NCBI RefSeq assembly: GCF_016026235.1
Contig: NZ_CP065613.1
Direction: 5' to 3' (one strand)
Source of the DNA: Escherichia coli
GTDB taxonomy: Bacteria > Pseudomonadota > Gammaproteobacteria > Enterobacterales > Enterobacteriaceae
Length of the DNA stretch: 64,000 nt
Shown: positions 27,733 to 53,844 of the stretch, piece by piece
Numbering within the stretch: the first letter of the stretch is position 1
Layout: every line of letters starts with the position of its first letter
Program-made: the position numbers and the translations under genes
The notes under the pieces: model-generated
Database searches by the model: none
What the model saw: the letters and a program-made list of their open reading frames with translations, nothing else
What the model was told of the DNA's origin: nothing

Positions 27733-28005
27733 TTTTTCAAATTGTGTGATTAAATAATTGAACATTAATGATGATTTATAGCATCATTATTCTATAACAT
27801 GAATAAACGGATTGAATGTGTTATGTTAAAAATGAGTTTATACGTAATAATATTGTTATTTCCCTTTCAGATTAGTGCAGCCATTACTAGCAAGGAAAGT
27901 GAGGTTGTTTCACCATTATTAATGGATGTTAATTCTTCACTAACAATGGAAAATATTTCTGAATTATCCACATCATCGGAACCATCGCAACAGGGGGTAT
28001 TTCCC

Positions 28006-29297
28006 TGAGGGATCCCCAGAAAATTTAGTAAACCATTATCATATTGGTATACCGTTGCTGTAGAACTTTCAGCCCTGCGTCAAGTGACAGTGTGTTTAGT
28101 ATGAGTGGAGAATGTCGAATCACATTCTCCGCCAGTTTTAATAACGAGATGACTCGCCTGTGCTTCACTGTATTTGCCTGATATTTATGATGTATCCCTT
28201 TGTTTTCCAGGCTGAAACCGCTTAACCACATAATGATACTGGCTAATGTTGCGATCAGACTCAATACCGTGACCCGCCCGGATGAATGACTGGCACCAAA
28301 CCGTAGTCCAAATCCCCAGCGAGGATTTTTTTCATCCCTGAAATTTTGCTCAATTTGCATTCTACGGCTGTATAATTTCATTACCTGTTTTGGCGAGAAC
28401 TCAGTACTGTTTGTGAAAATAAACCATGGTGATTTCCCGGCAGTACGAGCTTTAGCCGTCACCGATGGTCTGGTTGCTCTTTCCTTCGAGCGTTTAAATC
28501 TACGACCTTTAGGCTTACTTTTATAAAGATAAAAATGCCCTTCATGTTGTGCATTTTTATCTCGACCCAGCAGGCCTTCACCTAAATAAATTGCTGTCGT
28601 TGATGCTTTTGTGCCTGAGTCCGACACCTTTTCCCAGCCATTACCAACATTGTAATAATGATTGCCCAGTACCCGGCAAATATAGGTCCAGCCACGGGAG
28701 CGGAGCTGTTGGAACCATCGCCCCTGAAAACCGGCATCTGTAATAACAATGACATCAGTCCCGGGGGAAAAGCACTCAGCAAGCGATTCCAGAAAACGCT
28801 CATGTACATCTGCATTCGCTGTCTGTGATGATGGAACGACACAACTCATCAACGGTAAAGAACGCCCGTCACATGCCAGGCTTGCCCGCAAAAGCTGAAA
28901 ACGAGAGGCATGATAAGCACTCCAGTCAATGAGTATCACAACACGAGACATTCCCCGCGTAATCTTTTGGGTAATTCGCTGAAAAATGGTGGAAACCTCA
29001 TTTTGCAAATGTCGATTCCCCAACAGTCGATCCACCCGCTTTATTTTGTTTTTAACTGATGCCGTACCGGTTAAATGACGCCCGATACTGGTAAGTGTGA
29101 GGGAAGCGCCATTTATTACAGCATTAGTTGCGTCAATCAGTGATTTTTGACGGTAAAGATGCAAAGGGGCCAGTATATTGTTAAGGAAATTTTGGCATAA
29201 TGAACGTGCAGGCATAGTGGTGATCTCCTTGAAATTGTTAGCACAATCAATTAGATCACATCTCACTATGCCTGTCTTGTTTTCTGGGGATTCCTCA
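28006..29297 (-). mobile_element. IS4-family-like insertion sequence, copy 1 (intact), approx 1292 bp
   Basis: Terminal inverted repeats TGAGGGATCCCCAGAAAA / TGAGGAATCCCCAGAAAA; 11-bp direct repeat GGGGTATTTCC at 27994-28004 and 29298-29308; single transposase ORF. Confidence 0.8.
28025..29215 (-). CDS. IS transposase (intact)
   Basis: Track ORF 28025..29266; start placed at ATG 29215 (MPARSLCQNFLNN...) with RBS AAGGAG, matching the start in copy 2. Confidence 0.8.
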   Translation of the reverse strand: MPARSLCQNFLNNILAPLHLYRQKSLIDATNAVINGASLTLTSIGRHLTGTASVKNKIKRVDRLLGNRHLQNEVSTIFQRITQKITRGMSRVVILIDWSAYHASRFQLLRASLACDGRSLPLMSCVVPSSQTANADVHERFLESLAECFSPGTDVIVITDAGFQGRWFQQLRSRGWTYICRVLGNHYYNVGNGWEKVSDSGTKASTTAIYLGEGLLGRDKNAQHEGHFYLYKSKPKGRRFKRSKERATRPSVTAKARTAGKSPWFIFTNSTEFSPKQVMKLYSRRMQIEQNFRDEKNPRWGFGLRFGASHSSGRVTVLSLIATLASIIMWLSGFSLENKGIHHKYQANTVKHRRVISLLKLAENVIRHSPLILNTLSLDAGLKVLQQRYTNMIMVY

Positions 29298-29635
29298 GGG
29301 GTATTTCCTGTAATATGTACTCGACTTCATCCTGGCTCTGTAATGAAACGCCAGTTATTAACCGGCTGGGGGCCTGTTTTTATAATTGGGGATGATCCTT
29401 TTTCTCTGCGCTGGATGAGTGAACATCTGGAGATCCTTAAATCGCTAAATGCCCTTGGTTTGGTTGTTAATGTTGAATCAGTAGAACGAATGGAGGTATT
29501 ACAGCAGCGGGCTGATGGGTTATTGTTATTGCCAGTTATCTGCGATAATTTCGTGCAAACTCTGCAATTAAATGCTTATCCGGTATTAATCACAGAGATG
29601 GAAATATCACAATGATTAATAACATAATTACTGCA

Positions 29636-29835
29636 AATAATATCGTAATTTTGAAAATGGTAATCCTGTTCACGACACCATAATTAGAGTTATGTCTTGT
29701 ATCCGTTCAGTATAATTTCACGAATGCTTTATTAACTGGATGCGTGACTGCCATTCATCAAATGATAAAGACGTCATCGCAATTGATGGAAAAGCGCTTC
29801 CACACTCCTATGATAAAAGTGGTCGCAGGAGAGCG
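29636..29835 (+). pseudogene. H-repeat associated protein fragment (second, diverged copy of the 5-prime region)
   Basis: Encodes ...[35 protein letters not shown]...; about 85 percent DNA identity to 26420-26590, same orientation. Confidence 0.55.
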
Positions 29836-29886
29836 GGCTTTCGTAGTAATACCCCGACTCTCCCCGTCCTTAAACACAACCCCCAC

Positions 29887-30666
29887 TCACCACAACCTAA
29901 ACTCATCCGCATCCTGCCATGCCGGAAACTTTTCTCTATATTCCCGCAATGCCATCATCGACAGCTCCGCATCAATGCGCGTTGCCTGATGCGCGTCGGC
30001 AGTAGCGATAATCTCGCCTTGTGGATTAATCACCCGGCTGTCACCGCGATAATGGCAGCCGTTGCCATCGCTGCCGACGCGATTGCATCCCGCCACATAC
30101 GCCTGATTCTCAATCGCGCGGGCCGTCAGCAATGCCTGCCAGTGCAGAGAGCGCGGAGCAGGCCAGTTGGCAACGTAGATGGCGAGGTCATAATCGTTGA
30201 GATTGCGCGACCACACCGGAAAACGTAAGTCGTAGCACACCAACGGCAAAATACGCCAGCCGCGCCATTCCACAATCACTCGCGCATTGCCCGCTTTATA
30301 ATGTAGATGCTCATCTGCCATGCGGAACAGATGACGCTTATCATAAAAATGTACCGTGCCGCCCGGCTCAACCAGCAAAAAGCGGTTAACCGAACCAGAC
30401 TCCGTTTGTAATGCAACACTGCCTGCAATCAGCGCATTGCACTGCTGCGCCTTAGCTGTCATCCAGTTCACTACGTCATCTTGTGCTAGCGACGAAGCTG
30501 CCGCTTCCATGGCAAAGCCGCTGGTAAACATCTCCGGTAGAACGATCACATCGCGCCCGGTAATACCTTCCAGTTGACGATCAAAATGACGCAGGTTGGC
30601 AGGGCCATCCATCCACACCAGTGGTTGCTGCAAAAGCGTAATCTTCAAACCAGGCACGGTGTACAA
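29887..30666 (-). CDS. yafV: YafV-like carbon-nitrogen hydrolase (omega-amidase)
   Basis: 259 aa nitrilase-superfamily protein; true start may be a GTG three codons downstream ([11 protein letters not shown]...). Confidence 0.85.
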
Positions 30667-30810
30667 CTCCTTTATGCGAAGGGTTTTATAACTTTAACAC
30701 CTTATCAGGCAGTTGCCTTAGCGCAGAATAAATTGATAACAAATGCTGATATTGGAAATATCTGATTTGCAAATTATCGTGTTATCGCCAGGCTTTAGAA
30801 GGTTAATAAC

Positions 30811-31284
30811 ATGGGCAGGATAAGCTCGGGAGGAATGATGTTTAAGGCAATAACGACAGTCGCCGCTCTGGTCATCGCCACCAGTGCAATGGCGCAGGAT
30901 GATTTAACCATTAGCAGCCTTGCAAAGGGCGAAACCACCAAAGCTGCATTTAATCAGATGGTACAAGGGCATAAGCTGCCTGCCTGGGTGATGAAAGGCG
31001 GTACTTATACTCCCGCACAAACCGTAACGTTGGGAGATGAGACGTATCAGGTGATGAGCGCGTGCAAACCGCATGACTGTGGCTCGCAACGTATCGCTGT
31101 GATGTGGTCCGAGAAATCTAATCAGATGACGGGGCTGTTCTCGACTATTGATGAGAAAACGTCGCAAGAGAAACTCACCTGGCTGAATGTGAACGATGCG
31201 CTTTCGATTGATGGTAAAACGGTGCTGTTCGCGGCGTTGACCGGCAGCCTGGAAAACCATCCGGATGGCTTTAATTTTAAATAA
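30811..31284 (+). CDS. ivy: Ivy, inhibitor of vertebrate lysozyme
   Basis: 157 aa periplasmic protein with signal peptide and CKPHDCG motif. Confidence 0.85.
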   Translation: MGRISSGGMMFKAITTVAALVIATSAMAQDDLTISSLAKGETTKAAFNQMVQGHKLPAWVMKGGTYTPAQTVTLGDETYQVMSACKPHDCGSQRIAVMWSEKSNQMTGLFSTIDEKTSQEKLTWLNVNDALSIDGKTVLFAALTGSLENHPDGFNFK

Positions 31285-31294
31285 TTGGCGGATA

Positions 31295-31325
31295 AAGAAA
31301 CGGAGCCTTTCGGCTCCGTTATTCA
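31295..31325. terminator. Bidirectional stem-loop terminator between ivy and fadE
   Basis: CGGAGCC-TTTC-GGCTCCG hairpin flanked by A-run upstream and T-run downstream, between convergent genes. Confidence 0.5.
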
Positions 31326-31326
31326 A

Positions 31327-33771
31327 TTACGCGGCTTCAACTTTCCGCACTTTCTCCGGCAACTTTACCGGCTTCGTCGCCAGCTCTTCCGGATCAAAGT
31401 CATCAACGTTAATACTGCGCAGACGGCTTTCTTCAGCTTTCACCAGAATAGCGGCTTCATCTTTATCAATCAGCCCCTTCGCCAGCGCGTTGTGCGCCAG
31501 TTCATCCAGACGGGTAAACGGCAGGTTTTTACCCAGCTCTTTACAGATCCGCTGATGAATTGGGTCGGCGGCAATCACATCCACCAGCGCCTCTTCCAGC
31601 AAGCCAACCGGATTATGCTCGCTCGGCGTCAGGTACTGACCGCGACCAATGCGGGAACGGGTGGCGTTCGGCACTTGTAAAATCTTCGCCACTTTATGAT
31701 TCAGCTTGTCAGAAGGTGCCAGATAATGACGTCCGGTCGGGAAGATCACCACATTCAGCAGCCCGGCAACCACGCGGTTCGGGAAGTTTTGCAGTAAATC
31801 ATCCATCGCCTGTTCAGCCTGATACAGCGCATCTTGTACGCCCCAGTGCACCAGCGGCAGGTCGGCTTCATTACGGCCTTCGTCGTCATAACGCTTCAGC
31901 ACGGCAGAGGCGAGGTAGAGCTGGCTTAAAATATCCCCCAGACGGGCCGAGATGCGCTCGCGACGTTTCAGGCTGCCGCCCAGCACCGCCATAGACACAT
32001 CAGAAAGCAGGGCGAGGTTGGCGCTCAGGCGGTTCAGGTGCTGATAGTAGCGTTTAGTGGCATCGCCGGTTGGCGTGCTGCTGGTTAAACCGCGCGTCAG
32101 GCCCAGCCAGAAGCTGCGAACTTTGTTGCTACCGACGTGACCGATATGTTTGAACAACAGTTTATCGAACGCGTTGACGTCATTGTTCTTCGCCGCTTCC
32201 ATCTCTTCCAGCACGTACGGATGGCAACGAATCGCTCCTTGTCCGAAGATCATCATGCTGCGGGTCAGAATGTTAGCCCCTTCAACGGTGATGGCAATCG
32301 GTGCGCCCTGGTAAGCACGCGCCAGGAAGTTGCTTTGCCCGAGCATAATGCCTTTGCCACCAGTGATATCCATCGCATCAATAATCGACTGCTGCCCGCG
32401 GTGGGTACAGTGATACTTAACGATAGCCGACAGCACGGCAGGTTTTTCGCCGAGCATAATGCCGTAGGTAATCAGCGATGCCGCAGCATCCATCACGTAG
32501 GCATTACCGGCAATACGCGCCAGCGGCTCTTCAATCCCTTCCATCTTACCGATAGAGATTTTGAACTGACGGCGAATGTGAGCATACGCGCCCGTTGCCA
32601 GCGCTACCGATTTCACGCCGCCGGTTGAGTTGGAAGGCAGGGTGATGCCGCGGCCTACCGAGAGGCACTCCACCAGCATCCGCCAGCCTTGCCCGGCCAT
32701 TTTCGGCCCACCGATGATGTAATCGATCGGTACGAAGACATCTTTACCGCGCGTCGGTCCGTTCTGGAACGGTACGTTCAGCGGGAAGTGGCGACGACCA
32801 ATTTCCACGCCCGGCGTGGTGGTCGGGATCAGCGCACAGGTAATACCTAAATCTTCTGCGCCACCCAGCAGCTTTTCCGGGTCGGAGAGTTTAAACGCCA
32901 GCCCAAGCACAGTCGCAATCGGTGCCAGCGTAATATAGCGTTTGTTCCAGGTCAGACGCATCCCCAGCACCTGCTGGCCCTGCCATTCGCCCATGCAGAC
33001 AATCCCGGTGTCCGGAATCGCGCCCGCATCGGAACCCGCTTCCGGGCTTGTCAGTGCAAAGCAAGGGATCTCCTGACCACGCGCCAGACGCGGCAGATAG
33101 TGATCTTTCTGCTCGTCAGTGCCGTAATGTTGCAGCAGCTCGCCCGGGCCTAATGAGTTCGGCACGCCGACGGTAATCGCCAGGATCCCGCTCACGCCGG
33201 AGAGTTTTTGCAGCACGCGAGACTGGGCATAAGCTGAGAACTCCAGTCCGCCGTACTCTTTTTTGATAATCATCGCGAAGAAGCGATGCTCTTTAAGGTA
33301 CGCCCACAACTCCGGCGGCAGATCCGCCAGCTCATGAGTAATCTGGAAATCATTCGCCATCCGGCAGGCTTCTTCTACCGGGCCGTCGAGAAACGCTTGC
33401 TCTTCGGCGGTCAGGCGCGGCTGCGGATAGTTATGCAGCTTTTTCCAGTCCGGCTTGCCCTGGAACAAGTCGCCCTCCCACCAGGTGGTGCCCGCATCAA
33501 TCGCTTCTTTCTCAGTGCGCGACATCGGCGGCATCACCTTACGGAAACCGCGAAATACCGGCGCGGAAATCATCGACTTACGCATAGGCGCAAAGTTAAA
33601 TGGCACGAGGATAATGGCCAGAGGCACCAGTACCCACGCCGACCACAGACCAGCAACGCCGAGGGCGGCTGTCCAGGCGAGCAAAATCAGACTGCTGATA
33701 AATAAGCTCACGCGGTGATAGAACAACGCGCCGAGCAGGACAACCGTAGCGAGAATACTCAAAATCATCAT
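31327..33771 (-). CDS. fadE: FadE acyl-CoA dehydrogenase
   Basis: Track ORF 31327..33849; start trimmed to the [13 protein letters not shown]... methionine (814 aa). Confidence 0.9.
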
Positions 33772-34010
33772 AACGAAAAGCCCCTTACTTGTAGGAGGTC
33801 TGACCACTTGTGATGATATGGTTGTAGTGGATGTAAAAACATTTAGCAATGTGTTTACAATATAATTACAACAAAGCTCACATTGTTGCTGTTTTTATCC
33901 GCACTTCAGGTCAAAAAGTCCTGGTCATAGCACCTGCCCGTACTTCTCGCTTTTGGCGGTATCCGGTACACTGCATTTTGTCTATTACATTTATGCTGAA
34001 GGATATCCTC

Positions 34011-34589
34011 ATGTACCAGGATCTTATTCGTAACGAACTGAACGAAGCGGCGGAAACGCTGGCTAACTTTTTAAAAGATGACGCCAATATTCACGCCATT
34101 CAGCGCGCGGCGGTCCTGTTAGCAGACAGCTTTAAAGCCGGTGGCAAAGTGCTTTCCTGCGGCAACGGCGGTTCCCATTGCGACGCTATGCACTTTGCCG
34201 AAGAGTTGACCGGTCGCTACCGTGAAAACCGTCCGGGCTACCCGGCGATTGCTATTTCTGACGTTAGTCATATTTCCTGCGTCGGTAATGATTTCGGTTT
34301 CAATGATATTTTCTCCCGCTACGTTGAAGCGGTAGGTCGCGAAGGCGATGTACTGCTGGGGATCTCCACCTCCGGTAACTCTGCAAACGTGATCAAAGCG
34401 ATCGCAGCGGCGCGTGAGAAGGGGATGAAAGTGATCACCCTGACCGGTAAAGACGGCGGTAAAATGGCTGGCACGGCGGATATCGAAATTCGCGTTCCGC
34501 ACTTTGGTTATGCCGACCGCATTCAGGAGATTCACATTAAAGTGATCCATATCCTGATCCAGTTAATTGAAAAAGAGATGGTTAAGTAA
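34011..34589 (+). CDS. gmhA: GmhA (LpcA) sedoheptulose-7-phosphate isomerase
   Basis: Track ORF 33849..34589; start trimmed to [15 protein letters not shown]... (192 aa), SIS domain. Confidence 0.9.
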
Positions 34590-34594
34590 GTCTG

Positions 34595-34740
<146 letters not shown>

Positions 34741-34794
34741 CTTAAATCAATCTTCGCCGGGGGCCATGCGCTCCCGCTGTTGTGGAGGTTACCC

Positions 34795-35562
34795 ATGTGC
34801 GAATTGCTCGGGATGAGCGCCAACGTCCCTACCGATATCTGCTTTAGTTTCACCGGTCTGGTGCAGCGTGGTGGTGGAACCGGGCCACATAAAGATGGCT
34901 GGGGCATTACCTTTTACGAAGGTAAAGGCTGTCGCACATTTAAAGATCCACAACCCAGCTTTAATTCCCCCATCGCCAAACTTGTCCAGGACTACCCGAT
35001 AAAATCCTGTTCGGTGGTGGCTCATATTCGCCAGGCCAATCGGGGCGAGGTGGCGCTGGAAAATACTCACCCGTTTACCCGTGAGTTATGGGGGCGTAAC
35101 TGGACTTATGCCCATAACGGACAACTGACGGGCTACAAATCACTGGAAACCGGCAACTTCCGCCCGGTCGGTGAAACCGATAGCGAAAAAGCCTTCTGCT
35201 GGCTCCTGCATAAATTAACGCAGCGTTACCCGCGCACACCGGGCAACATGGCGGCAGTGTTTAAATATATCGCCTCACTGGCGGATGAACTGCGGCAGAA
35301 GGGCGTTTTCAACATGCTGCTTTCTGACGGGCGCTATGTGATGGCGTATTGCTCGACTAATTTACACTGGATCACCCGCCGCGCGCCGTTTGGCGTGGCA
35401 ACGCTGCTGGATCAGGATGTGGAAATCGACTTCAGCTCGCAGACCACACCGAATGATGTGGTCACGGTGATTGCAACACAGCCGCTGACGGGCAATGAAA
35501 CCTGGCAAAAGATTATGCCAGGCGAATGGCGCTTATTTTGCCTCGGGGAGCGTGTAGTTTGA
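34795..35562 (+). CDS. yafJ: YafJ class-II glutamine amidotransferase
   Basis: Starts [10 protein letters not shown] (N-terminal Cys nucleophile after Met); 255 aa. Confidence 0.85.
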
Positions 35563-36273
35563 TGCCAGTTGTGGCTGCACAACTTCGTGGCTTAACGGCT
35601 TGCTGACCACGTAACGACCATTGACCACAGAAACGGTCGGTGGCTTACGGGTTTGCTCAAAGTAGTCGTAACCCAGCTTCAGTTGCTCCCAGAAGTCCTT
35701 AAAGTTGGAATATTTATGGCGCTTCATATTGGCGTCGGTCATGCGGAACGGGTAAATACTCACTTGCACGCTCGGCTGACCAAACACCAGCGCACCAGTA
35801 ACGAACTGGAAGATCTCATCAATACCCTGATTGGTCATTGCGTAGCAGCCGATGGAAACACAATCGCCGTGGATCATCAGGTATTTCCCTTCATAACCAT
35901 GCGCACGGTCATAGGCATTGGGGAAACCAATATTAATCGCTTTGTAGTAACGGCTGTCTGGTTTTAACTGATTACGCTGGACGCTATAAAACCCTTCCGG
36001 GCTTTTGAAATCGCCCTGACGCTGTTTTGGCCCTAAGCCGCCGGAATATTTACAGATTTTATAACTGTCGAGCAGCTGATATTGCTCGCCCATTTTGACG
36101 TAGAGATCGAGCGTACGTTCTTCCTTGAAGATCTGGATGTAGACAGGGGATCCCATCAACTGCTGCTTATACTCTTTGCTCACTGGCGTGGTCGAGCTAC
36201 TGCTGCCCAGCAAACCGGCAAACGAAACGCACGGGATCAACAACATCGCAAGAATTAATGCGATTTTACGCAT
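35533..36273 (-). CDS. yafK: YafK L,D-transpeptidase-fold protein
   Basis: 246 aa with signal peptide and YkuD-like catalytic region ([14 protein letters not shown]). Confidence 0.85.
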
Positions 36274-36428
36274 ACTGCTTATTCCTTGATAAAACGGTTA
36301 CACACGCCAGGACGGCAAAATAGATCCCAAATCGGAATAGTCTGGATTTGGAAGGCTCACATTATCACCAAAAGAGTTTTACGCAAGCCTGTCGGCGCAG
36401 GGTTTACAAATTTCATCGGCAGCGTGCT

Positions 36429-36707
36429 TTACCCAAAGAGCGCCGCGTGAGTTCCAGTTCTCTCAAATCGTAAAAGTTTATCGGTAAGTTTGTAAATCAG
36501 GATCCAGTCCGGTTCGACATGAGCATCGCGATAACCTTTCCATGAACCTTGCAGCGGGTGGTCTTTATAAACAGCTGGAAGCGGTAAAGCATTATTGATA
36601 AGAAGCGTCATAAGATATTTCAATTTATTCATATACTTATGACGCTTTTGTGCAAGTTTTACATCCTTTGAAAATTGTCCCGAGTATTCAATATCCCTTT
36701 GAATCAT
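36429..36707 (-). CDS. yafQ: YafQ toxin (RelE-family mRNA interferase)
   Basis: 92 aa, directly downstream of dinJ with 2-nt gap. Confidence 0.85.
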   Translation of the reverse strand: MIQRDIEYSGQFSKDVKLAQKRHKYMNKLKYLMTLLINNALPLPAVYKDHPLQGSWKGYRDAHVEPDWILIYKLTDKLLRFERTGTHAALFG

Positions 36708-36709
36708 AT

Positions 36710-36970
36710 TTAAATTCCTAATTTATCAAATAAATCATCGGCGTCTTTGGCCTTATGAACATCAACGCCAGCTTCGCTGTTTTTGATTGATTGAATGGTT
36801 AATTGATTAGGCTCGCGTAAATCAAACGGCAATGCCTTTTCACGCGCGACCTTTGTGAGGGTTATGCGAACCAGGTCAGAGATGGTCAGCCCCATCCCGG
36901 CCAGTACGTCCGCCGCCTGATTCTTCAGATCTTCATCGATTCGGGCACGAACAAACGCGTTAGCAGCCAT
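36710..36970 (-). CDS. dinJ: DinJ antitoxin
   Basis: 86 aa RHH antitoxin upstream of yafQ. Confidence 0.85.
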   Translation of the reverse strand: MAANAFVRARIDEDLKNQAADVLAGMGLTISDLVRITLTKVAREKALPFDLREPNQLTIQSIKNSEAGVDVHKAKDADDLFDKLGI

Positions 36971-36985
36971 TGGGGTATCTCCTGT

Positions 36986-37005
36986 GCTGTATATTTATTC
37001 AGCTT
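36986..37005 (-). promoter_or_regulatory. LexA box (SOS operator) upstream of dinJ
   Basis: Minus-strand sequence AGCTGAATAAATATACAGCA: CTG-N10-CAG palindromic half-sites 16-35 nt upstream of dinJ start. Confidence 0.55.
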
Positions 37006-37179
37006 GAATTGTAGCTCAAATGAGCAACAGCGGCAATTCATGAGCAATTCAATAAACTGATGTATTTACATAATTCACTGAAATATATATGTTAATTTTA
37101 TAATAATGGTTTATTAAGTTTGTTCAGAAACGATCTGGGATACACTGCAACATTAAAGCATGACCAGCCATTATTGAGT

Positions 37180-37929
37180 ATGTCCTTGCCGTCGATTCCA
37201 TCCTTTGTATTGTCGGGATTACTGTTGATTTGTTTGCCGTTTTCTTCATTTGCCAGCGCCACCACATCACATATCTCTTTCAGCTACGCCGCCCGCCAGC
37301 GGATGCAAAACCGTGCGCGTTTATTAAAACAGTACCAAACCCATCTGAAAAAGCAGGCCAGCTATATTGTGGAAGGCAATGCCGAAAGCAGAAGGGCGCT
37401 GCGCCAGCACAACCGCGAACAGATAAAACAGCATCCAGAATGGTTTCCTGCGCCGCTCAAGGCGAGTGACAGACGCTGGCAGGCGCTGGCGGAAAACAAC
37501 CACTTTTTAAGCAGCGATCACCTGCATAACATCACCGAAGTGGCGATTCACCGCCTGGAGCAGCAGCTTGGCAAGCCTTACGTCTGGGGCGGCACGCGGC
37601 CTGATAAAGGCTTCGACTGTAGCGGGTTGGTTTTTTATGCCTACAACAAGATCCTCGAGGCGAAGCTCCCGCGCACGGCCAATGAGATGTATCACTACCG
37701 CCGGGCAACGATTGTGGCGAATAACGACCTGCGCCGGGGAGATTTGCTGTTTTTCCATATTCACAGTCGTGAGATTGCCGACCATATGGGGGTGTATCTG
37801 GGCGACGGTCAGTTTATTGAGTCACCGCGCACCGGGGAAACCATTCGGGTAAGTCGGTTAGCTGAACCTTTCTGGCAGGATCACTTTTTAGGCGCGCGGC
37901 GGATTTTGACGGAGGAGACGATTTTGTAG
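37180..37929 (+). CDS. yafL: YafL NlpC/P60-family peptidase lipoprotein
   Basis: Track ORF 37120..37929; start trimmed to MSLPSIPSF...; NlpC/P60 motifs DCSGLVFYAY and HMGVYLGDGQFIES. Confidence 0.8.
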   Translation: MSLPSIPSFVLSGLLLICLPFSSFASATTSHISFSYAARQRMQNRARLLKQYQTHLKKQASYIVEGNAESRRALRQHNREQIKQHPEWFPAPLKASDRRWQALAENNHFLSSDHLHNITEVAIHRLEQQLGKPYVWGGTRPDKGFDCSGLVFYAYNKILEAKLPRTANEMYHYRRATIVANNDLRRGDLLFFHIHSREIADHMGVYLGDGQFIESPRTGETIRVSRLAEPFWQDHFLGARRILTEETIL

Positions 37930-38010
37930 GACGGATAAGGCGTTTACGCCGCATCCGGCAGTTGTGCACGGATGCCTGATGCGACGCTGACGCGTCTTAT
38001 CATGCCTACA
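37930..38010. repeat. REP elements
   Basis: GTAGGACGGATAAGGCGTTTACGCCGCATCCGGCA... palindromes after yafL. Confidence 0.65.
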
Positions 38011-38104
38011 AATTTGTGCGTTTTTGCGAGCCGCTTTCCCGTTATTCCATCACCTCATTGCCGACCTTTCCTTTTCTTCTTACCGTTGAGAAAAAGGAGT
38101 CGCC

Positions 38105-38602
38105 ATGTCTGAATATCGTCGGTATTACATCAAAGGGGGAACCTGGTTTTTCACGGTTAACCTACGAAATCGTCGAAGCCACCTTCTGACCGCTCAGTTC
38201 CAGATGCTCCGTAACGCCATTATTAACGTTAAGCGAGACAGACCTTTTGAAATTAACGCCTGGGTCGTTTTGCCGGAGCATATGCATTGCATATGGACAT
38301 TACCCGAAAGCGATGATGATTTTTCCTCGCGCTGGCGGGAGATTAAAAAGCAGTTCACCCATGCTTGCGGATTGAATAATATCTGGCAACCGCGTTTTTG
38401 GGAGCATGCCATTCGCAATACCACAGATTACCGACATCATGTTGATTATATTTATATAAATCCAGTGAAACATGGCTGGGTAAAGCAGGTGAGAGATTGG
38501 CCATTCTCAACGTTCCATCGCGATGTGGCGCGAGGGTTATATCCCATTGATTGGGCGGGAGACATAACGGATTTAAATGCTGGCGAGCGTATTATTTTAT
38601 AA
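38105..38602 (+). CDS. rayT: RayT (TnpA-REP) REP-associated tyrosine transposase
   Basis: 165 aa with HxH-type motif (LPEHMHCIW) and Y1 transposase-like C-terminus; flanked on both sides by REP clusters. Confidence 0.8.
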   Translation: MSEYRRYYIKGGTWFFTVNLRNRRSHLLTAQFQMLRNAIINVKRDRPFEINAWVVLPEHMHCIWTLPESDDDFSSRWREIKKQFTHACGLNNIWQPRFWEHAIRNTTDYRHHVDYIYINPVKHGWVKQVRDWPFSTFHRDVARGLYPIDWAGDITDLNAGERIIL

Positions 38603-38604
38603 TT

Positions 38605-38785
<181 letters not shown>

Positions 38786-38787
38786 AC

Positions 38788-40864
<2,077 letters not shown>

Positions 40865-40881
<17 letters not shown>

Positions 40882-42004
40882 CCAGTTTAAGCACCTCTTT
40901 GGGAATGGAAATATGTCTGTTCAGGGCCGGGCGCGGCTGTGCGCCCTCGCGCCAGTGTTTCATTTGCAGGACGTAGGTCAGAACGTGGGCGATGGCCCGG
41001 TAAAGCTGAAACGGAATTTGCTGGTTCACCTGGGTGGTGTAGTAAACCGAGCGCGCCAGCCGCGGGAACTCGACCACTTCCACCTGATTCTCAGCGGCGA
41101 CCTGGCGAATATAGAGGGCGATTTCATCGGTGCCCTTCGCCACCACAAACGGCGCGGCGGCGCGCGACTGGTCATACTGCAACGCCACGGCGTAGTGGGT
41201 CGGGTTGGTGATCACCACGTTGGCTTTCGGCACCACTTTGCGAATTTGCCCCATCGCCAGTTGCCGTTGCAGCCGCCGCACGCGCGCCTTCACTTCCGGC
41301 TTGCCTTCCTGATTTTTGTACTCTTCTTTCAGCTCCTGTTTGGTCATCTTCAGCCCTTTGGTGAACAGGGCTTTCGCCAGCGGCACGTCGAGAAGCGCAA
41401 AGAAGATAAACAGGATGACAAAGTTGCGCATCACGCTGGCGTAGAGCGACAAACCCTCATTCATCGCCAGTTTGAAGGGGAGCGCCTGCAGGCCGAGAAA
41501 GGAGGCAAAGTTATTGCGCAGGCTTACCCACAGCATCACCAGCACCACCACCGACTTCACCGTCATCTTTCCCGTTTCCGCCAGATGCTCACTGGAAAAC
41601 AGCCGCCCAATGCCTTTTAACGGACTGATTTTGCTGAAGTCCGGGAGGATTTTTTTCGGTAAAAACAGCCAGCCGCCGGGCACCAGCGAAGAGAGCAGCG
41701 CGGCGGCGGGCATCGGCAGCAAGGTGAGAATAAACTTGCCGAGAATTAACAGGTGATGGCGCAGAAACTGGCCGATCACTTGCGGGTTATTAATCTCCTG
41801 CGCGTACTGATGCACGCTGATAAAACTCTCGCGTACAAAATCGGCATACCACGGGAAGCTGCTGGAGATCACCACAAACGCCGCAAACAGGCTCGCCGCC
41901 AGCCCCATATCCTTCGAGCGCGGCAGTTGCCCCTCTTCACGCGCTTTACGCAGCTTTTGCGCCGAGGGTTTCTCTGTTTTTTCTTCGCTGCTGCTATCCG
42001 CCAT
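40865..42004 (-). CDS. lfhB: Lateral flagellar export protein FlhB homolog
   Basis: 379 aa; N-terminus MADSSSEEKTEKPSAQKLRKAREEGQLPRSKD and NPTH autocleavage motif (VVITNPTHYAVAL). Confidence 0.85.
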
Positions 42005-42776
42005 AGTGACCTTTCAGCGCGTCGAGCTGCTGCAACACAAAATTCGCCAGATGCAGGTAGTGATCCGGCAGGTTGTAGAGCAAGGTGGCGAAGCAAACCA
42101 GCCCCGCCAGCATGTTGATGGGAAAGCCCAGTGAAAAGAGATTCAGCGGCGGCGCAATGCGGTTGAGCAGGCCAAAGCAGCCCTGCACAATCAGCATGAT
42201 AAAGGTGGTCGGCAGCGCCAGCAGCGATGCGGACGCCAGCACCCAGCTAAAGGCCAGCGCGATGGTGCGCAGGGTTTGTGGATGCAGCGCGTTGCCAATC
42301 GGCCAGTAGGTGAAACCTTTGTACAACACGCTTACCAGCAGCAGATGTCCGTCCATGGCAAAAAACAGCAGGATCGCGTAAACGTTAATAAGCTCCGCCA
42401 GCACGGTGGTCGATGCGCCGCTGCTTGGGTCGTTCATCACCGCCATGCTCATCCCCATATTGAACGAGAGAATTTGCCCGGCGAGTTGTAGCGCCAGAAA
42501 CAGAAACTGGAACATCAGCCCGAATAACATGCCCCATAAAATTTGCTCCACCGTCAGGATCAGACTGTTGAGCGATAACAGATCGTGGGGAATGGGATGG
42601 GGGATCAACGGCGTGATGATGATTGCCAGCGCCAGCGACAGAATAATCCGCACGCGCACGGTCAGGGCGCTGTTATCCAGCACCGGCACATAGCGCAGAA
42701 ACGCCATAATGCGCACGAAGGGAAACCACAGCCCCAGCGCCAGATCCGTCAGTTGCGTAACGTCGCTTGTGCGCAT
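41994..42776 (-). CDS. lfiR: Lateral flagellar export protein FliR homolog
   Basis: Track ORF 41994..42827; start trimmed to ATG 42776 adjacent to lfiQ stop; polytopic membrane protein. Confidence 0.75.
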   Translation of the reverse strand: MRTSDVTQLTDLALGLWFPFVRIMAFLRYVPVLDNSALTVRVRIILSLALAIIITPLIPHPIPHDLLSLNSLILTVEQILWGMLFGLMFQFLFLALQLAGQILSFNMGMSMAVMNDPSSGASTTVLAELINVYAILLFFAMDGHLLLVSVLYKGFTYWPIGNALHPQTLRTIALAFSWVLASASLLALPTTFIMLIVQGCFGLLNRIAPPLNLFSLGFPINMLAGLVCFATLLYNLPDHYLHLANFVLQQLDALKGHYGG

Positions 42777-42777
42777 C

Positions 42778-43050
42778 TTAATGAACCAGCAGAGCGGCTT
42801 GGGTAAACAGATGAATGCACAGATCATGCAACTGGATAATCATCCATTTGCCGCACACGCCCAGCACCACCAGCGTGACAATCAGCCTCGGCAAAAAGCT
42901 CAGGGTCTGTTCGTTAATCTGCGTCACCGCCTGGAACACGCTCACCAGCAGGCCAACCAGCAGGCTTGGCACCACCAGTACCGAAACCAGCAAAATCACT
43001 ACTTTTATGCCGCTGGCGACAATGTCGGCGGCAACGTCTACGGTCAACAT
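42778..43050 (-). CDS. lfiQ: Lateral flagellar export protein FliQ homolog
   Basis: 90 aa, two TM helices, FliQ-like. Confidence 0.8.
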   Translation of the reverse strand: MLTVDVAADIVASGIKVVILLVSVLVVPSLLVGLLVSVFQAVTQINEQTLSFLPRLIVTLVVLGVCGKWMIIQLHDLCIHLFTQAALLVH

Positions 43051-43052
43051 AA

Positions 43053-43805
43053 TCAGCCCAGCCCCAGCCCGCGAATGCTGGTGGTGAGCGTGCCGATGGT
43101 CAGCGACCAGCCGTCGATCAGCACAAACAGCATCAGCTTAAAGGGCAGCGAAACAATCAGCGGCGACAGCATCATCATCCCCATCGCCATCAATACGCTT
43201 GCGACAATCAGGTCGATAACCAGAAACGGGATGTAAATCATAAAGCCAATCTGGAAGGCCGTTTTCAGCTCGCTCAACACATAGGCAGGCACCACAATCG
43301 TGAGATCCTGGTCGGCGGCATTGCCCTTCGCGCCTCCGATGGTCATGATTTGCGCCATCGCTTTTTTGTCTGTCTGCGCCAGCATAAAGCGTTTGAGTGG
43401 CGTCGCGGCGGTGCTTAACGCATCGGTCAGGGTAATCTGATCGTTTTCGAACGGTACCACCGCGTGGTCGTAAATATTGAGCCAGATAGGGCGCATCACC
43501 AGCATGGTGAGGGAGAGCGCAATGCCAATCAGAATGCGATTCGGCGGCGTTTGTTGCAGCCCCAGCGCCTGGCGCAGCAGCGACAGCACGATAATAAAGC
43601 GCGTAAAGCAGGTCATCATCAGCACCATCGTCGGCAGCAAACCGACGAGGGTCATCAGAATCAGTACCTGAATTTTGACGCTGTACTCCTGGGTGTTGCC
43701 GTGGGTGACCACGTTAAGTAGCGCAATATCGCCGCCCTGGGCCAACGCCAGCGGGGCGAGCGCCAGCAGCCCAAGGCCCAGCGTCAGTTGAGTGCGGCGT
43801 TTCAT
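43053..43805 (-). CDS. lfiP: Lateral flagellar export protein FliP homolog
   Basis: 250 aa with signal peptide and FliP-conserved membrane blocks. Confidence 0.85.
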   Translation of the reverse strand: MKRRTQLTLGLGLLALAPLALAQGGDIALLNVVTHGNTQEYSVKIQVLILMTLVGLLPTMVLMMTCFTRFIIVLSLLRQALGLQQTPPNRILIGIALSLTMLVMRPIWLNIYDHAVVPFENDQITLTDALSTAATPLKRFMLAQTDKKAMAQIMTIGGAKGNAADQDLTIVVPAYVLSELKTAFQIGFMIYIPFLVIDLIVASVLMAMGMMMLSPLIVSLPFKLMLFVLIDGWSLTIGTLTTSIRGLGLG

Positions 43806-44173
43806 GGCGCCAGGTCGTTGATATCGCGGGTGTTAAACTCCAGCACGCGCAGGCCGTACTTCTCGTTGACCACCACCACTTCCGCTTTGCCCAGCAGGAT
43901 ATTGTTCACTTTAATATCCAGCGGCTCCCCGGCGAGTTTATCCAGCTCAATCACCGTGTCGTCGTCGATATTAAGGAGGTCGGCTAACATGATTTCCACC
44001 GACGACACTTCCAGCGTTAAGGTCACCGGAATGCGTTTCAGCAGCGTCATCGAGTCGGAAAAACGGTCTTCCAGGCGGGTGACCAGCGTTTCAGCGTCGG
44101 CGGATTTTGCGACAGGCGCAACTTCATCGGTGAGGCCAAAATCCCCGGCTAAAATATCTTCTTGCTTACTCAT
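43802..44173 (-). CDS. lfiN: Lateral flagellar switch protein FliN homolog
   Basis: Track ORF 43802..44233; start trimmed to ATG 44173; C-terminal SpoA-like region (LLGKAEVVVVNEKYGLRVLE). Confidence 0.7.
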   Translation of the reverse strand: MSKQEDILAGDFGLTDEVAPVAKSADAETLVTRLEDRFSDSMTLLKRIPVTLTLEVSSVEIMLADLLNIDDDTVIELDKLAGEPLDIKVNNILLGKAEVVVVNEKYGLRVLEFNTRDINDLAP

Positions 44174-45017
44174 GGCTATTCTCATTTTTGCCCGCCAGCT
44201 CCGACAAAAACAGTTTGTCTTTGTCTTCCACAATCAGAGCGCTAAATAATTCAGATTGCCCAATCGCCACCGGGAACGTTTCTCCCAGTGATATGGGTAA
44301 AATATCCCCGGCTTTTATCTGCGTGAGATCCGCGACATTCATCGATAGCTCGGCGATTTTGACGTTCAGGGTCAGCGGCAGGGAGCGGATGATCTCTTTA
44401 ATCAGGGCCGGTTTATTAACGGATTTCGCCACCTGCTGCGGTTTACTGTGCTCGCTGTGGCGGATCAGATTTAAAATAAAATCGGTGTGGGCGTCGTCGA
44501 GCAAAATACGAAAACTGCTCTCTTCATCGCCCGCAAGGGTAAAGGTTAATTGATACGCCCAGTGGGTAATTACCGTGCTGCTGTCCAGCTTTAATTTCAG
44601 CGCAATACCGGATGTTTGCAGATTAAATATCAGCGTGCAGATATCCAGCGCCAGACGGTTTTTTAATCGTGTTTCAGTTTTGGTCGGCAGGACGTTATGC
44701 GCTTTAGCCTCTTCCAGAGACGACTCCAGACCATAAAAATTGCCCAGCAGCATTAACAGCAAGGAGCGATCGATATTAAACGCCAGATGCCCGACCTGGG
44801 AAACCATCAGTTCAGCGTTTTTATTAATAATATCCATTTCGCAGCCAATCTTTTTTAAGGTGATATTGCTGCGATGCTTTTTGAGAAAGTAGCTGCCCAG
44901 ATGCGAATCAATCACGTCAAAATTCCCTGTAAACAGGGTCGGCAGGCGATGGTAGGGGCGTCCGAGCCGATTACCTTCTAATTTAAAGATGCCTGGCGTT
45001 TTACTGTACTTCAGCAT
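44166..45017 (-). CDS. lfiM: Lateral flagellar switch protein FliM-like
   Basis: 283 aa upstream of lfiN in conserved order; assignment mainly positional. Confidence 0.55.
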   Translation of the reverse strand: MLKYSKTPGIFKLEGNRLGRPYHRLPTLFTGNFDVIDSHLGSYFLKKHRSNITLKKIGCEMDIINKNAELMVSQVGHLAFNIDRSLLLMLLGNFYGLESSLEEAKAHNVLPTKTETRLKNRLALDICTLIFNLQTSGIALKLKLDSSTVITHWAYQLTFTLAGDEESSFRILLDDAHTDFILNLIRHSEHSKPQQVAKSVNKPALIKEIIRSLPLTLNVKIAELSMNVADLTQIKAGDILPISLGETFPVAIGQSELFSALIVEDKDKLFLSELAGKNENSHE

Positions 45018-45189
45018 GGCTTACTTTCTCTGCTGTAATGGTATGGGCGATTTTGTGCACGCAAATCCGGCAGTGACACAAGGTGAGGTATTAAATAGAG
45101 AGGGCGTGAAAGGGGCAAATTATTAATAGGGTGAAAAAATAATTAAATTATTAAAGGGTGAGATATCGGGCATCGTCATAACACATTGC

Positions 45190-45285
<96 letters not shown>

Positions 45286-45404
45286 TAACTCATTGTTTAC
45301 CATCAAATAATATTTTTATTATCGTTTAATTCGAACTTGTTAATCCCGCCGGTGATACGCTTCACAATATCCTGTTTTCTGTCGCTACTTATATCGTTCA
45401 CCCT

Positions 45405-46382
45405 ATGTCTGAACTTATTGCAACTGCCGCTTCCAGCATTAACGCTTTTACTCTGGCAAAGCGTGTCGCCGCCTTTAACGTGCCGGTGCTCATTCAGGGC
45501 GAAACCGGCGCGGGCAAAGAGTGCGTGGCAAAATATATTCACACCGTAGCCTTTGGTGAAAATGAAAACGTCCCCTATATCGGCGTGAACTGCGCGGCGA
45601 TCCCGGAAAACATGCTGGAAGCCACGTTATTTGGCTACGACAAAGGCGCATTTACCGGCGCAATTGCCAGCGTGCCAGGAAAAATGGAACTGGCGAATAA
45701 CGGTACCTTATTACTCGATGAAATTGGCGATATGCCGCTGGCATTACAGGCTAAAATATTACGCGTATTGCAGGAACAGCAGGTTGAGCGATTAGGCAGC
45801 AACCGACAAATTAAACTCAATTTTCGCCTGATTGCCTGCACCAATAAAAACCTTGAACAGGAAGTGGCTGCCGGGCGTTTTCGTGAAGATCTCTATTATC
45901 GTCTGGCGGTTATTCCTATTACCATGCCGCCGCTGCGCGAACGTCTGAACGATATTATTCCGCTGGCAGAGTCATTTATTAAAAAATACTCCACGGTGCT
46001 GGTGAAAAATATCACCCTTTCAGAATCTACCCGCCGTGCGCTGCTCAATTACCGCTGGCCCGGCAACGTGCGCCAGTTGGAGAACGCCATTCAGCGGGGA
46101 ATGATTTTAAACCGCGATGGCGTGATTTACCCGGACGCGTTAGGCCTGCCGGAAAATGACGTTGCCGACCGCAGCGAACTGCAATGGCCTGCCGTCAACA
46201 TTGCTGAAACCAGCGATTTAGGCCAGCACGGACGAAGCGCGCAATATCAATATATCGCCGACCTGATGCGTAAATATCAGGGCAACCGCAGCAAAATCGC
46301 CGACCTGTTAGGCATTACCCCGCGCGCACTGCGTTATCGACTGGCCTCCATGCGCAAGCAAGGTATCGAAGTTTTCTCCTGA
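45405..46382 (+). CDS. lafK: Sigma-54-dependent transcriptional activator (LafK-like), no receiver domain
   Basis: 325 aa; Walker A GETGAGKE, GAFTGA motif, C-terminal HTH; protein begins directly with the AAA+ domain. Confidence 0.75.
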   Translation: MSELIATAASSINAFTLAKRVAAFNVPVLIQGETGAGKECVAKYIHTVAFGENENVPYIGVNCAAIPENMLEATLFGYDKGAFTGAIASVPGKMELANNGTLLLDEIGDMPLALQAKILRVLQEQQVERLGSNRQIKLNFRLIACTNKNLEQEVAAGRFREDLYYRLAVIPITMPPLRERLNDIIPLAESFIKKYSTVLVKNITLSESTRRALLNYRWPGNVRQLENAIQRGMILNRDGVIYPDALGLPENDVADRSELQWPAVNIAETSDLGQHGRSAQYQYIADLMRKYQGNRSKIADLLGITPRALRYRLASMRKQGIEVFS

Positions 46383-46396
46383 CCCGGAAGTTAAAA

Positions 46397-46738: not shown

Positions 46739-46742
46739 CCCT

Positions 46743-49386: not shown

Positions 49387-49388
49387 CC

Positions 49389-51429: not shown

Positions 51430-51431
51430 CT

Positions 51432-51866: not shown

Positions 51867-51868
51867 CC

Positions 51869-52264: not shown

Positions 52265-52275
52265 CAAAATAAAAT

Positions 52276-53629: not shown

Positions 53630-53844
53630 GTTATCGTTTATGCTCTATCAATTTTAACAAAATGTTAAATTACGCAATAATTGTTATAGTGTGTAACCTA
53701 TATTTATGATAAGCAATATGTTTAGCAAGATTCAGGTTTTTTCAGAATTCATAAAGATCGCTCCCCCACAATCTACGACTTTTACCGATTCACCAGTCAT
53801 AAAGCGATGAGTTTGAAATCAGAGGGTAGTTAAGTGCGTTGTTC

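What the first reader, a model, noticed from the sequence alone, without database searches (positions are those of the whole stretch)
28006..29297. Two copies of one IS in inverted orientation about 28 kb apart; one intact, one decayed
Copy 1 (28006-29297) has an intact transposase. Copy 2 (57093-58383) has a CAG to TAG nonsense change and a 1-bp deletion in an A-run. Each copy has its own 11-bp target duplication, so both are simple insertions, each interrupting a gene. Being inverted repeats of approx 1.3 kb they are substrates for inversion of the intervening yafV to Flag-2 segment, and copy 1 could still mobilise.
Basis: seen in the sequence. Interest (0 to 1): 0.5.

Follow-up and report, generated by a model that had tools for sequence, protein, structure and literature searches.

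The report
Two ISEc60 insertion sequences, one broken
These are two nearly identical copies of a catalogued jumping gene (ISEc60, a relative of IS10) that recently landed in two non-essential E. coli genes; this is ordinary mobile-element biology and not a new kind of feature.

Summary
The window carries two inverted copies of one 1294-bp insertion sequence. Copy 1 is at 28005-29298 and copy 2 at 57092-58384, and they differ at only two positions. PGAP annotation of matching RefSeq copies names the element ISEc60. It belongs to the IS4 family and is about 36% identical in protein to IS10.

Copy 1 encodes a 396-aa transposase identical to WP_001111632.1. Copy 2 has Q79 CAG->TAG and an A7->A6 frameshift, and both changes are private to that copy.

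The target duplication is 10 bp, not 11. Twelve copies always end CTGAGG...CCTCAG. The apparent 11th base is the terminal base of the IS, which happens to match a G/C-rich target of the form GGGnnnnCCC.

Removing each IS plus one duplicate restores an intact gene. One is an ICE-remnant gene and the other is the Flag-2 lysine-N-methylase. Both empty sites exist in E. coli FDAARGOS_943, which is about 99.94% identical and collinear with the window.

No inversion has occurred in this assembly, and the pair did not arrive as a composite transposon. Inversion potential and mobility of copy 1 are reasonable inferences but are not shown here. Interest is low.

The parts
28005..29298 (-). ISEc60 copy 1, complete, 1294 bp. 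The transposase reads on the - strand.
   Evidence: 99.9% identical over all 1294 bases to RefSeq elements annotated 'IS4-like element ISEc60 family transposase'. Ends CTGAGG...CCTCAG are shared with 11 other copies.
28025..29215 (-). Copy 1 transposase CDS, 396 aa plus stop, intact. Catalytic residues are D97, D160 and E289. The YREK signature is Y282-R285-E289-K296.
   Evidence: ORF seen. The translation is identical to the FDAARGOS_943 copy annotated WP_001111632.1. NCBIfam NF033591 scores 360.5 bits against a cutoff of 152. Pfam PF01609 has E=2.8e-20. Motif positions come, and alignment to IS10A transposase.
29280..29298 (-). Copy 1 IRL, the transposase-proximal terminal inverted repeat. 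Sequence CTGAGGAATCCCCAGAAAA, with no GATC.
   Evidence: Read directly. It matches IRR at 18 of 19 positions.
28005..28023 (-). Copy 1 IRR, the transposase-distal terminal inverted repeat. Sequence CTGAGGGATCCCCAGAAAA, which contains a GATC Dam site.
   Evidence: GATC at sense positions 1285-1288. IS10A shows the same A/G asymmetry between its ends.
27995..28004 (.). Copy 1 target-site duplication, left copy, GGGTATTTCC.
29299..29308 (.). Copy 1 target-site duplication, right copy, GGGTATTTCC.
   Evidence: The empty site with a single copy matches FDAARGOS_943 at 100% over 2000 bp in one piece.
27799..29615 (+). Interrupted gene 1, an 'integrating conjugative element protein' gene split by copy 1. 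The 5' part runs to 28004 and the 3' part is 29309-29615. It lies in a small island flanked by ISAs1 remnants next to yafV.
   Evidence: The reconstructed ORF is uninterrupted. The annotated intact homologue is WP_197939617.1.
57092..58384 (+). ISEc60 copy 2, 1293 bp. Both ends are intact and the transposase is inactivated.
57175..58364 (+). Copy 2 transposase pseudogene.
   Evidence: Translation shows a stop at codon 79 and a frame change after K296. The ORFs are fragmented.
57409..57411 (+). Nonsense codon TAG, where 7 other copies have CAG (Q79). It lies upstream of all catalytic residues.
   Evidence: sense position 318 is T in copy 2 only.
58058..58063 (+). A6 run, where 7 other copies have A7. 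This is a frameshift immediately after the YREK lysine K296.
57082..57091 (.). Copy 2 target-site duplication, left copy, GGGAAAGCTC.
58385..58394 (.). Copy 2 target-site duplication, right copy, GGGAAAGCTC.
   Evidence: The empty site matches FDAARGOS_943 at 99.9% over 2000 bp in one piece.
56441..58676 (-). Interrupted gene 2, the Flag-2 cluster lysine-N-methylase (FliB/LafV-like) split by copy 2. The 5' part is 58676-58385 and the 3' part is 57081-56441.
   Evidence: The reconstructed 310-aa ORF is uninterrupted. The annotated intact homologue is WP_197940108.1, lying between flgN and a glycosyltransferase.
29299..57091 (.). The 27.8-kb segment between the two copies. It carries an ISAs1 remnant, yafV, ivy, fadE, lpcA, yafJ, dpaA, yafQ-dinJ, yafL, rayT and the first half of Flag-2 (flhA...fliJ, glycosyltransferases). 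It is in the ancestral orientation.
   Evidence: Collinear with FDAARGOS_943 at 99.93%.

Best explanation
Two independent, recent, simple insertions of the known insertion sequence ISEc60 lie in the chromosome of an E. coli strain that is a close sister of FDAARGOS_943. ISEc60 belongs to the IS4 family and is IS10-like.

By homology with IS10 and IS50, the DDE transposase binds the 19-bp terminal inverted repeats and excises the element by cut-and-paste. It then inserts the element at staggered cuts 10 bp apart, preferably in GGGnnnnCCC-like sites. Repair of those cuts produces the 10-bp direct duplications.

Copy 1 landed in an ICE-remnant gene. It keeps a consensus transposase and both ends, so it is probably autonomous. 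Copy 2 landed in the Flag-2 lysine-N-methylase gene. It later acquired a nonsense codon and a frameshift, so it is non-autonomous. Because its ends are intact, it could at best be moved in trans.

Shown here: identity of the element, boundaries, duplications, the lesions, the interrupted genes, the empty sites in a sister strain, and the absence of inversion. Inferred from family knowledge: the chemistry of transposition, current activity of copy 1, and the ability of the 1.3-kb inverted copies to support RecA-dependent inversion of the 27.8-kb segment.
For: - Element identity: 99.9% over 1294 bp to RefSeq copies annotated ISEc60. The transposase is identical to WP_001111632.1.
- Family: NF033591 IS4 family at 360.5 bits against a cutoff of 152. 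PF01609 DDE domain. YREK motif and D97/D160/E289.
- Relation to IS10: about 36% identity over 93% of the protein to IS10A and ISVsa5 transposases, E~1e-64. The ends match IS10A ends at 12 of 13 positions, with the same GATC asymmetry.
- Duplication length: 10 bp in 10 of 12 copies, with constant termini.
- Simple insertions: both empty sites are present as single uninterrupted matches in FDAARGOS_943, and the restored ORFs are intact.
- No rearrangement: the window is collinear with that strain, with about 35 SNPs in about 61 kb but 7 IS presence/absence differences. This points to very recent IS activity.
- Relationship of the copies: both window copies share a private synonymous marker, and both lesions are private to copy 2.
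Against: No direct evidence of activity for copy 1: there are no reads, no excision footprints and no assay. No sigma-70-like promoter was found upstream of the transposase by the simple scan. The A-run deletion in copy 2 is the kind of difference an assembly or polishing error could make. I could not compare against the ISfinder reference entry itself, so the name ISEc60 rests on PGAP annotation of identical RefSeq copies.
Confidence: 0.93

Rival explanations
1. The two copies are the arms of a Tn10/Tn5-style composite transposon that inserted as one 30.4-kb unit. Like Tn10 and Tn5, it would have one working and one defective arm.
For: The architecture resembles Tn10 and Tn5: inverted IS10-like arms, one with a nonsense mutation.
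Against: The outer flanks are not a duplication of each other (GGGTATTTCC vs GGGAAAGCTC), and each arm has its own 10-bp duplication instead. The enclosed DNA is ordinary E. coli backbone plus Flag-2, in the same place and order as in FDAARGOS_943, which lacks both arms. Both transposase genes read outward, so the outer termini are the two GATC-bearing IRR ends. That is the reverse of Tn10.
Confidence: 0.01
2. Copy 2 is not really decayed. One or both of its differences are assembly or polishing errors within a multi-copy repeat, and both copies are intact.
For: Both differences sit in or next to homopolymer runs: T5C->T6 and A7->A6. They are the only private changes in copy 2 and both happen to be inactivating. 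The window also has three other 1-bp indels relative to FDAARGOS_943 in about 61 kb, and two of them split genes.
Against: A C->T substitution is not a typical homopolymer-length error. The other indels are not in long homopolymers, and overall divergence is low and clean. Frameshifted ISEc60 copies are also annotated in other assemblies.
Confidence: 0.1
3. The 27.8-kb segment has already been inverted by recombination between the copies, so the present order is a rearranged state.
For: Inverted 1.3-kb repeats at 99.85% identity are adequate RecA substrates. This rests on established knowledge and was not tested here.
Against: Each copy is flanked by a matching pair of 10-mers, and an odd number of inversions would have exchanged them. 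The segment has the same orientation as in FDAARGOS_943.
Confidence: 0.01

Closest known systems
ISEc60 (IS4 family), as annotated by PGAP in E. coli CFSAN029787, RMDEC332/364, VL46 and FDAARGOS_943
   Same: Copy 1 is 99.9% identical over the full 1294 bp. Its transposase is identical to WP_001111632.1. The termini and the 10-bp duplication are the same.
   Different: Nothing differs in kind. There is one private synonymous change (sense position 122 C->T) shared by both window copies, and copy 2 has two inactivating changes. The two insertion sites were not found in any of 5426 complete RefSeq E. coli genomes.
IS10 / IS10A (IS1999) / ISVsa5, the arms of Tn10 and Tn1999
   Same: The DDE transposase has about 36% identity over 93% of its length, with aligned D, D, E and YREK residues. 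The ends CTGAGGAATCCCC / CTGAGGGATCCCC compare with IS10A CTGAAGAATCCCC / CTGAAGGATCCCC. In both, the Dam GATC site is present only at the transposase-distal end.
   Different: The duplication is 10 bp, whereas for IS10 it is 9 bp (from my own knowledge of IS10). The element is 1294 bp against about 1329 bp. The Rfam scan returned no match other than a weak chance hit to an unrelated family, so no RNA-OUT-like antisense RNA was found, and no pIN/pOUT-like promoters were detected by the simple scan. IS10-style Dam and antisense control is therefore unproven for ISEc60.
Tn5 (IS50L/IS50R) and Tn10 (IS10L/IS10R) composite transposons
   Same: Inverted arms of an IS4-family element, with one arm intact and one arm defective. 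In IS50L the defect is also a nonsense codon (from my own knowledge).
   Different: Here the arms inserted separately, each with its own duplication. They enclose 27.8 kb of resident chromosome, and their transposase genes read outward.
IS expansion with gene decay in Shigella and enteroinvasive E. coli, and decay of the Flag-2 cluster in E. coli
   Same: There are many IS presence/absence differences between near-identical strains. Flag-2 is hit independently in both strains: lysine-N-methylase here, and flgH plus a glycosyltransferase in FDAARGOS_943.
   Different: The pathotype of the source strain is unknown. ISEc60 is a rare IS: only 14 of 5426 complete genomes hold a near-full copy.

Membership tests
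IS4 family insertion sequence | DDE transposase domain (Pfam PF01609) and a match to a curated IS4-family model above its cutoff | tested here: met
   PF01609 E=2.8e-20. NF033591 scores 360.5 bits against a cutoff of 152.
IS4 family insertion sequence | Y-(2)-R-(3)-E-(6)-K signature containing the catalytic E | tested here: met
   YSRRMQIEQNFRDEK gives Y282, R285, E289 and K296. It aligns with the IS10A sequence YAKRMQIEETFRDLK.
IS4 family insertion sequence | Short terminal inverted repeats | tested here: met
   CTGAGG(A/G)ATCCCCAGAAAA matches at 18 of 19 positions.
IS4 family insertion sequence | Direct target duplication of fixed length, in the 9-13 bp range | tested here: met
   10 bp in 10 of 12 copies. 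Two of those copies are unambiguous.
IS4 family insertion sequence | Cut-and-paste transposition through a DNA hairpin intermediate | not testable with these tools
   Inferred from IS10 and IS50 biochemistry only.
ISEc60 (same element) | Near-identity in DNA and transposase to the named element | tested here: met
   99.9% DNA identity to PGAP-labelled ISEc60 copies. The protein is identical to WP_001111632.1.
ISEc60 (same element) | Match to the ISfinder reference entry (length, IR, DR) | not testable with these tools
   ISfinder is not available here. The literature search found only passing mentions.
Composite (compound) transposon | One target duplication flanking the outer ends of the whole unit | tested here: not met
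   The outer flanks are GGGTATTTCC and GGGAAAGCTC. Each arm has its own pair.
Composite (compound) transposon | The enclosed segment is foreign to the site, being absent or located elsewhere in relatives that lack the arms | tested here: not met
   The segment is collinear chromosomal backbone in FDAARGOS_943.
IS-mediated inversion (already occurred) | Exchanged, non-matching target duplications at the two copies, and reversed order relative to relatives | tested here: not met
   The duplications match at each copy, and the orientation is the same as in the sister strain.

The most novel reading that the evidence does not exclude
The two copies might work together rather than separately. One possibility is an 'inside-out' Tn10/Tn5-like compound element, with one working and one defective arm, able to move the 27.8-kb yafV-to-Flag-2 segment. 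The other is a recombination switch whose inversion isomers coexist in the population. A related reading is that the repeated, independent ISEc60 hits in Flag-2 in two sister strains reflect selection for loss of this second flagellar system and not neutral decay.
Probability: 0.05. Interest if true: 0.35.

Novelty: already known. Interest (0 to 1): 0.1.

Why it matters
The finding matters little beyond annotation. It fixes the boundaries and names of two mobile elements. It records two gene disruptions, one in an ICE-remnant gene and one in the Flag-2 lysine-N-methylase. It also flags a 1.3-kb inverted repeat pair that can confuse assembly and could flip 27.8 kb of chromosome.

Three by-products are modestly useful. 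ISEc60 makes 10-bp duplications and seems to prefer GGGnnnnCCC targets. Its ends share with IS10 the asymmetry of a Dam site at one end only. And the lineage shows a very recent IS burst, with 7 IS differences against about 35 SNPs in about 61 kb, which is useful for strain typing and for studying IS-driven genome decay.

Tried and rejected
- Copy 1 junction in complete RefSeq E. coli: I searched for an existing genome with the same insertion. No place covered 80% or more of the query.
- Copy 1 junction in GTDB species representatives: an exact 45-mer gave 0 matches, so the source genome remains unidentified.
- Solved structures: a PDB sequence search with the transposase gave only chance hits with E>0.3. 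Tn5 transposase is too distant for phmmer.
- Rfam scan of the element for an IS10-like RNA-OUT antisense RNA: one chance hit to an unrelated family at E=0.73 and nothing else.
- Simple promoter scan: no sigma-70-like site upstream of the transposase start or pointing outward through IRL. I therefore make no claim about IS10-style pIN/pOUT control.
- Literature search for ISEc60: two papers with passing mentions only, and I did not read them.
- An 11-bp duplication was considered and rejected. It requires asymmetric IS ends (C...A), and copies whose flanks do not extend contradict it.
- Composite-transposon origin and a past inversion were considered and rejected.

Full report
**Observation**

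The repeat finder reports one long inverted repeat in the window. It is split into two arms pairs only by a 1-bp indel: 28000-28331/58058-58389 at 100% and 28327-29312/57078-58063 at 99%.

A pairwise alignment of 27985-29320 (+) with 57070-58405 (-) shows exactly two differences inside the element. One is a single-base substitution and the other is a 1-bp length change in a homopolymer. Identity stops abruptly at both ends, at CTGAGG... and ...CCTCAG. A 1.3-kb match at 99.85% identity is not a chance event.

**Boundaries and target duplication**

In copy 1 the sequence GGGTATTTCC immediately precedes CTGAGG (27995-28004) and immediately follows CCTCAG (29299-29308). In copy 2 the same holds for GGGAAAGCTC (57082-57091 and 58385-58394).

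With those exact coordinates the flanking 11-mers are not identical. An 11-bp repeat exists only if one terminal base of the IS is counted as target.

To settle this I compared 12 copies: the two in the window, three in FDAARGOS_943, and seven from five other strains. The termini are CTGAGG...CCTCAG in all 12. The duplication is exactly 10 bp in ten of them. In two of those (FDAARGOS_943 glycosyltransferase copy, RMDEC364) neither neighbouring base allows an extension.

The duplicated 10-mers are G-rich on the left and C-rich on the right, roughly GGGnnnnCCC. That composition explains why an extra G or C so often coincides with the IS terminus. The elements are therefore 28005-29298 (1294 bp) and 57092-58384 (1293 bp), each with a 10-bp duplication.

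**What the element is**

Megablast against 5426 complete RefSeq E. coli genomes finds full-length matches at 99.9% identity. These are annotated 'IS4-like element ISEc60 family transposase'. The element is rare: only 14 genomes hold a place covering at least 80% of it. One genome, FDAARGOS_943, has 38-39 places.

The 396-aa ORF of copy 1 (29215-28025, - strand) is identical to the protein annotated WP_001111632.1 in that strain. Family evidence is as follows:

- NCBIfam NF033591 (IS4 family transposase) scores 360.5 bits against a curated cutoff of 152.
- Pfam PF01609 (DDE_Tnp_1) has E=2.8e-20.
- The IS4-family signature Y-(2)-R-(3)-E-(6)-K is present as Y282, R285, E289 and K296, with candidate catalytic D97 and D160.

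tblastn against plasmids shows about 36% identity over 93% of the protein to IS10A and ISVsa5 transposases, E about 1e-64. A global alignment with an IS10A transposase lines up the D, D, E and YREK residues.

The terminal repeats are CTGAGGAATCCCCAGAAAA (IRL) and CTGAGGGATCCCCAGAAAA (IRR), matching at 18 of 19 positions. They match the ends of the fetched IS10A copy, CTGAAGAATCCCC and CTGAAGGATCCCC, at 12 of 13 positions. The A/G asymmetry is the same in both elements and creates a GATC Dam site only at the transposase-distal end. ISEc60 is thus an IS10-like member of the IS4 family.

**State of the two copies**

Among eight near-identical copies only four sites vary:

| Sense position | State |
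|---|---|
| 122 | T in both window copies, C in all six others. Synonymous (Asn13 AAT vs AAC). |
| 318 | T only in copy 2. Q79 CAG->TAG, window 57409-57411. |
| A-run near 967 | One base shorter only in copy 2. A6 at 58058-58063, frameshift right after K296. |
| 997 | Differs only in the FDAARGOS_943 flgH copy. |

Copy 1 therefore carries the consensus transposase and both ends, and is plausibly autonomous. Copy 2 shares a private marker with copy 1, so the two are sister copies within this strain. Copy 2 picked up both of its lesions after that split.

The stop at codon 79 precedes all catalytic residues, so copy 2 cannot make transposase. Its ends are intact.

One caveat applies. Both lesions lie in or beside homopolymers (T5C->T6, A7->A6). 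I cannot exclude that the A-run change is an assembly error, though the substitution is less likely to be one.

**Are they simple insertions into genes?**

I removed each IS plus one copy of its 10-mer and searched the reconstructed 2-kb sites. The copy 1 site matches FDAARGOS_943 at 100% in one piece, and 542 genomes cover at least 80% of it. The copy 2 site matches the same strain at 99.9% in one piece, and 1277 genomes cover at least 80%.

In that strain the sites lie inside two genes. One is an intact 'integrating conjugative element protein' gene (WP_197939617.1), in a small island between ISAs1 remnants next to yafV. The other is the Flag-2 'lysine-N-methylase' gene (WP_197940108.1), between flgN and a glycosyltransferase. 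The reconstructed window sequences give uninterrupted ORFs across both junctions, 162/170 aa and 310 aa. Both are therefore simple insertions that disrupt coding sequences.

**Has anything rearranged?**

A BLAST comparison of the whole window with the FDAARGOS_943 region shows complete collinearity, with about 35 mismatches in about 61 kb. The 29298-57092 segment is in the same orientation as its flanks. Matching 10-mers at each copy also exclude an odd number of inversions.

The outer flanks of the pair are unrelated, and the enclosed DNA is ordinary chromosome: yafV, ivy, fadE, lpcA, yafJ, dpaA, dinJ-yafQ, yafL, rayT and half of Flag-2. The pair is therefore not a composite transposon that arrived as a unit.

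Both transposase genes read outward. The outer termini of the pair are the two GATC-bearing IRR ends, which is the reverse of Tn10.

**Context**

The two strains differ by seven IS presence/absence events in this 64-kb stretch.

- FDAARGOS_943 has IS21 in tssC, IS600, IS1, an IS5-family element, and ISEc60 in the Flag-2 glycosyltransferase. None of these is in the window. It also has ISEc60 in flgH, a site about 100 bp beyond the window's end, so that insertion could not be checked against the window.
- The window has its own two ISEc60 copies.

Against about 0.06% nucleotide divergence, this indicates very recent and independent IS activity in the lineage. That is indirect support for ISEc60 being active. 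No complete RefSeq E. coli genome and no GTDB representative genome carries the copy 1 junction, so the source strain is not identified.

**Mechanism**

Shown by the sequence: the terminal inverted repeats, a DDE/YREK transposase, 10-bp duplications, and a biased target.

Inferred from IS10 and IS50 biochemistry (established knowledge, not tested here): the transposase pairs the two ends, excises the element by hairpin-mediated double-strand cleavage, and inserts it at 10-bp staggered cuts. IS10-type transposases act mostly in cis, so copy 2 would be mobilised poorly if at all.

The single GATC at IRR suggests Dam-sensitive end usage as in IS10, but support is thin. The Rfam scan returned no match other than a weak chance hit to an unrelated family, so no RNA-OUT-like RNA was found. 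No consensus promoters were found near IRL either.

Homologous recombination between the 1.3-kb inverted copies could invert the 27.8-kb segment. Because both breakpoints lie in genes that are already dead, this would cost nothing further. There is no evidence that it has happened.

**Comparison with the known, and verdict**

This is ISEc60 itself, a catalogued element, in two strain-specific sites. Novelty is 'already known'. Interest is low at 0.1.

The only mildly curious points are these:

- Both private changes in copy 2 are inactivating.
- The pair formally resembles Tn5/Tn10 architecture, with one good arm and one nonsense arm.
- ISEc60 hit Flag-2 independently in both sister strains.

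Noticed in passing
window 1-64000 vs NZ_CP065615.1 (L001, L010); empty sites near window 15058-15064, 21736-21742, 23046-23054, 53024-53027, 54384-54393: The window and E. coli FDAARGOS_943 differ by only about 35 SNPs in about 61 kb. They nevertheless differ by seven IS presence/absence events. IS21 in tssC, IS600, IS1, an IS5-family element and two ISEc60 copies are present there and absent here, while the two ISEc60 copies of the finding are present here and absent there. This is a very recent IS burst in the lineage.
   Followed up: partly
window 11892 (ORFs 11890-13347 and 11487-11936, - strand): There is an extra A relative to FDAARGOS_943, and it splits the T6SS baseplate gene tssF into two ORFs. 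This is either a real pseudogene or a sequencing error in one of the two assemblies.
   Followed up: partly
window 54742 (ORFs 54716-56392 and 53955-54767, - strand): A 1-bp deletion (GGG->GG) relative to FDAARGOS_943 splits the large Flag-2 glycosyltransferase. In FDAARGOS_943 the same gene is instead broken by an ISEc60 insertion. Flag-2 therefore carries independent lesions in both strains.
   Followed up: partly
window 1307: One 9-bp repeat unit (CTGCTGTTT) is missing relative to FDAARGOS_943. This is an in-frame length polymorphism, by position in the T6SS tssM gene of FDAARGOS_943.
   Followed up: no
window 26412-26611 and 29635-29834; also 19086-19300/21371-21585 and 23197-23378/23724-23905: Three pairs of diverged direct repeats at 75-90% identity. 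The first pair corresponds to the two ISAs1 (H-repeat) transposase remnants that bracket the small island hit by copy 1. The others fall among the T6SS effector, DUF3304 and vgrG paralogues.
   Followed up: partly
12 ISEc60 copies: window 27995-28004 and 57082-57091; L001-L009 flanks: The ISEc60 target 10-mers are G-rich at the 5' end and C-rich at the 3' end. Examples are GGGTATTTCC, GGGGAAACCC, GGGGTAGCCC, GGGATAACCT and GGTAAATCCC. This suggests a preference for GGGnnnnCCC-like sites.
   Followed up: partly
L002 (NZ_CP011417.1 65318-67211), locus positions about 275-310: Plasmid pCFSAN029787_01 carries two ISEc60 copies in tandem, in the same orientation. They are separated by exactly the 10-bp sequence GGTAAATCCC, which recurs after the second copy. 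This could be an IS dimer made by unequal exchange at the duplication, or an insertion into the neighbour's duplication.
   Followed up: no
window 28005-28023 (IRR) vs 29280-29298 (IRL); L011 ends: ISEc60 and IS10A share an end asymmetry: GATC is present only in the transposase-distal inverted repeat. Two more GATC sites lie upstream of the transposase ATG, at sense positions 42 and 74. This hints at IS10-like Dam control, which was not tested.
   Followed up: partly
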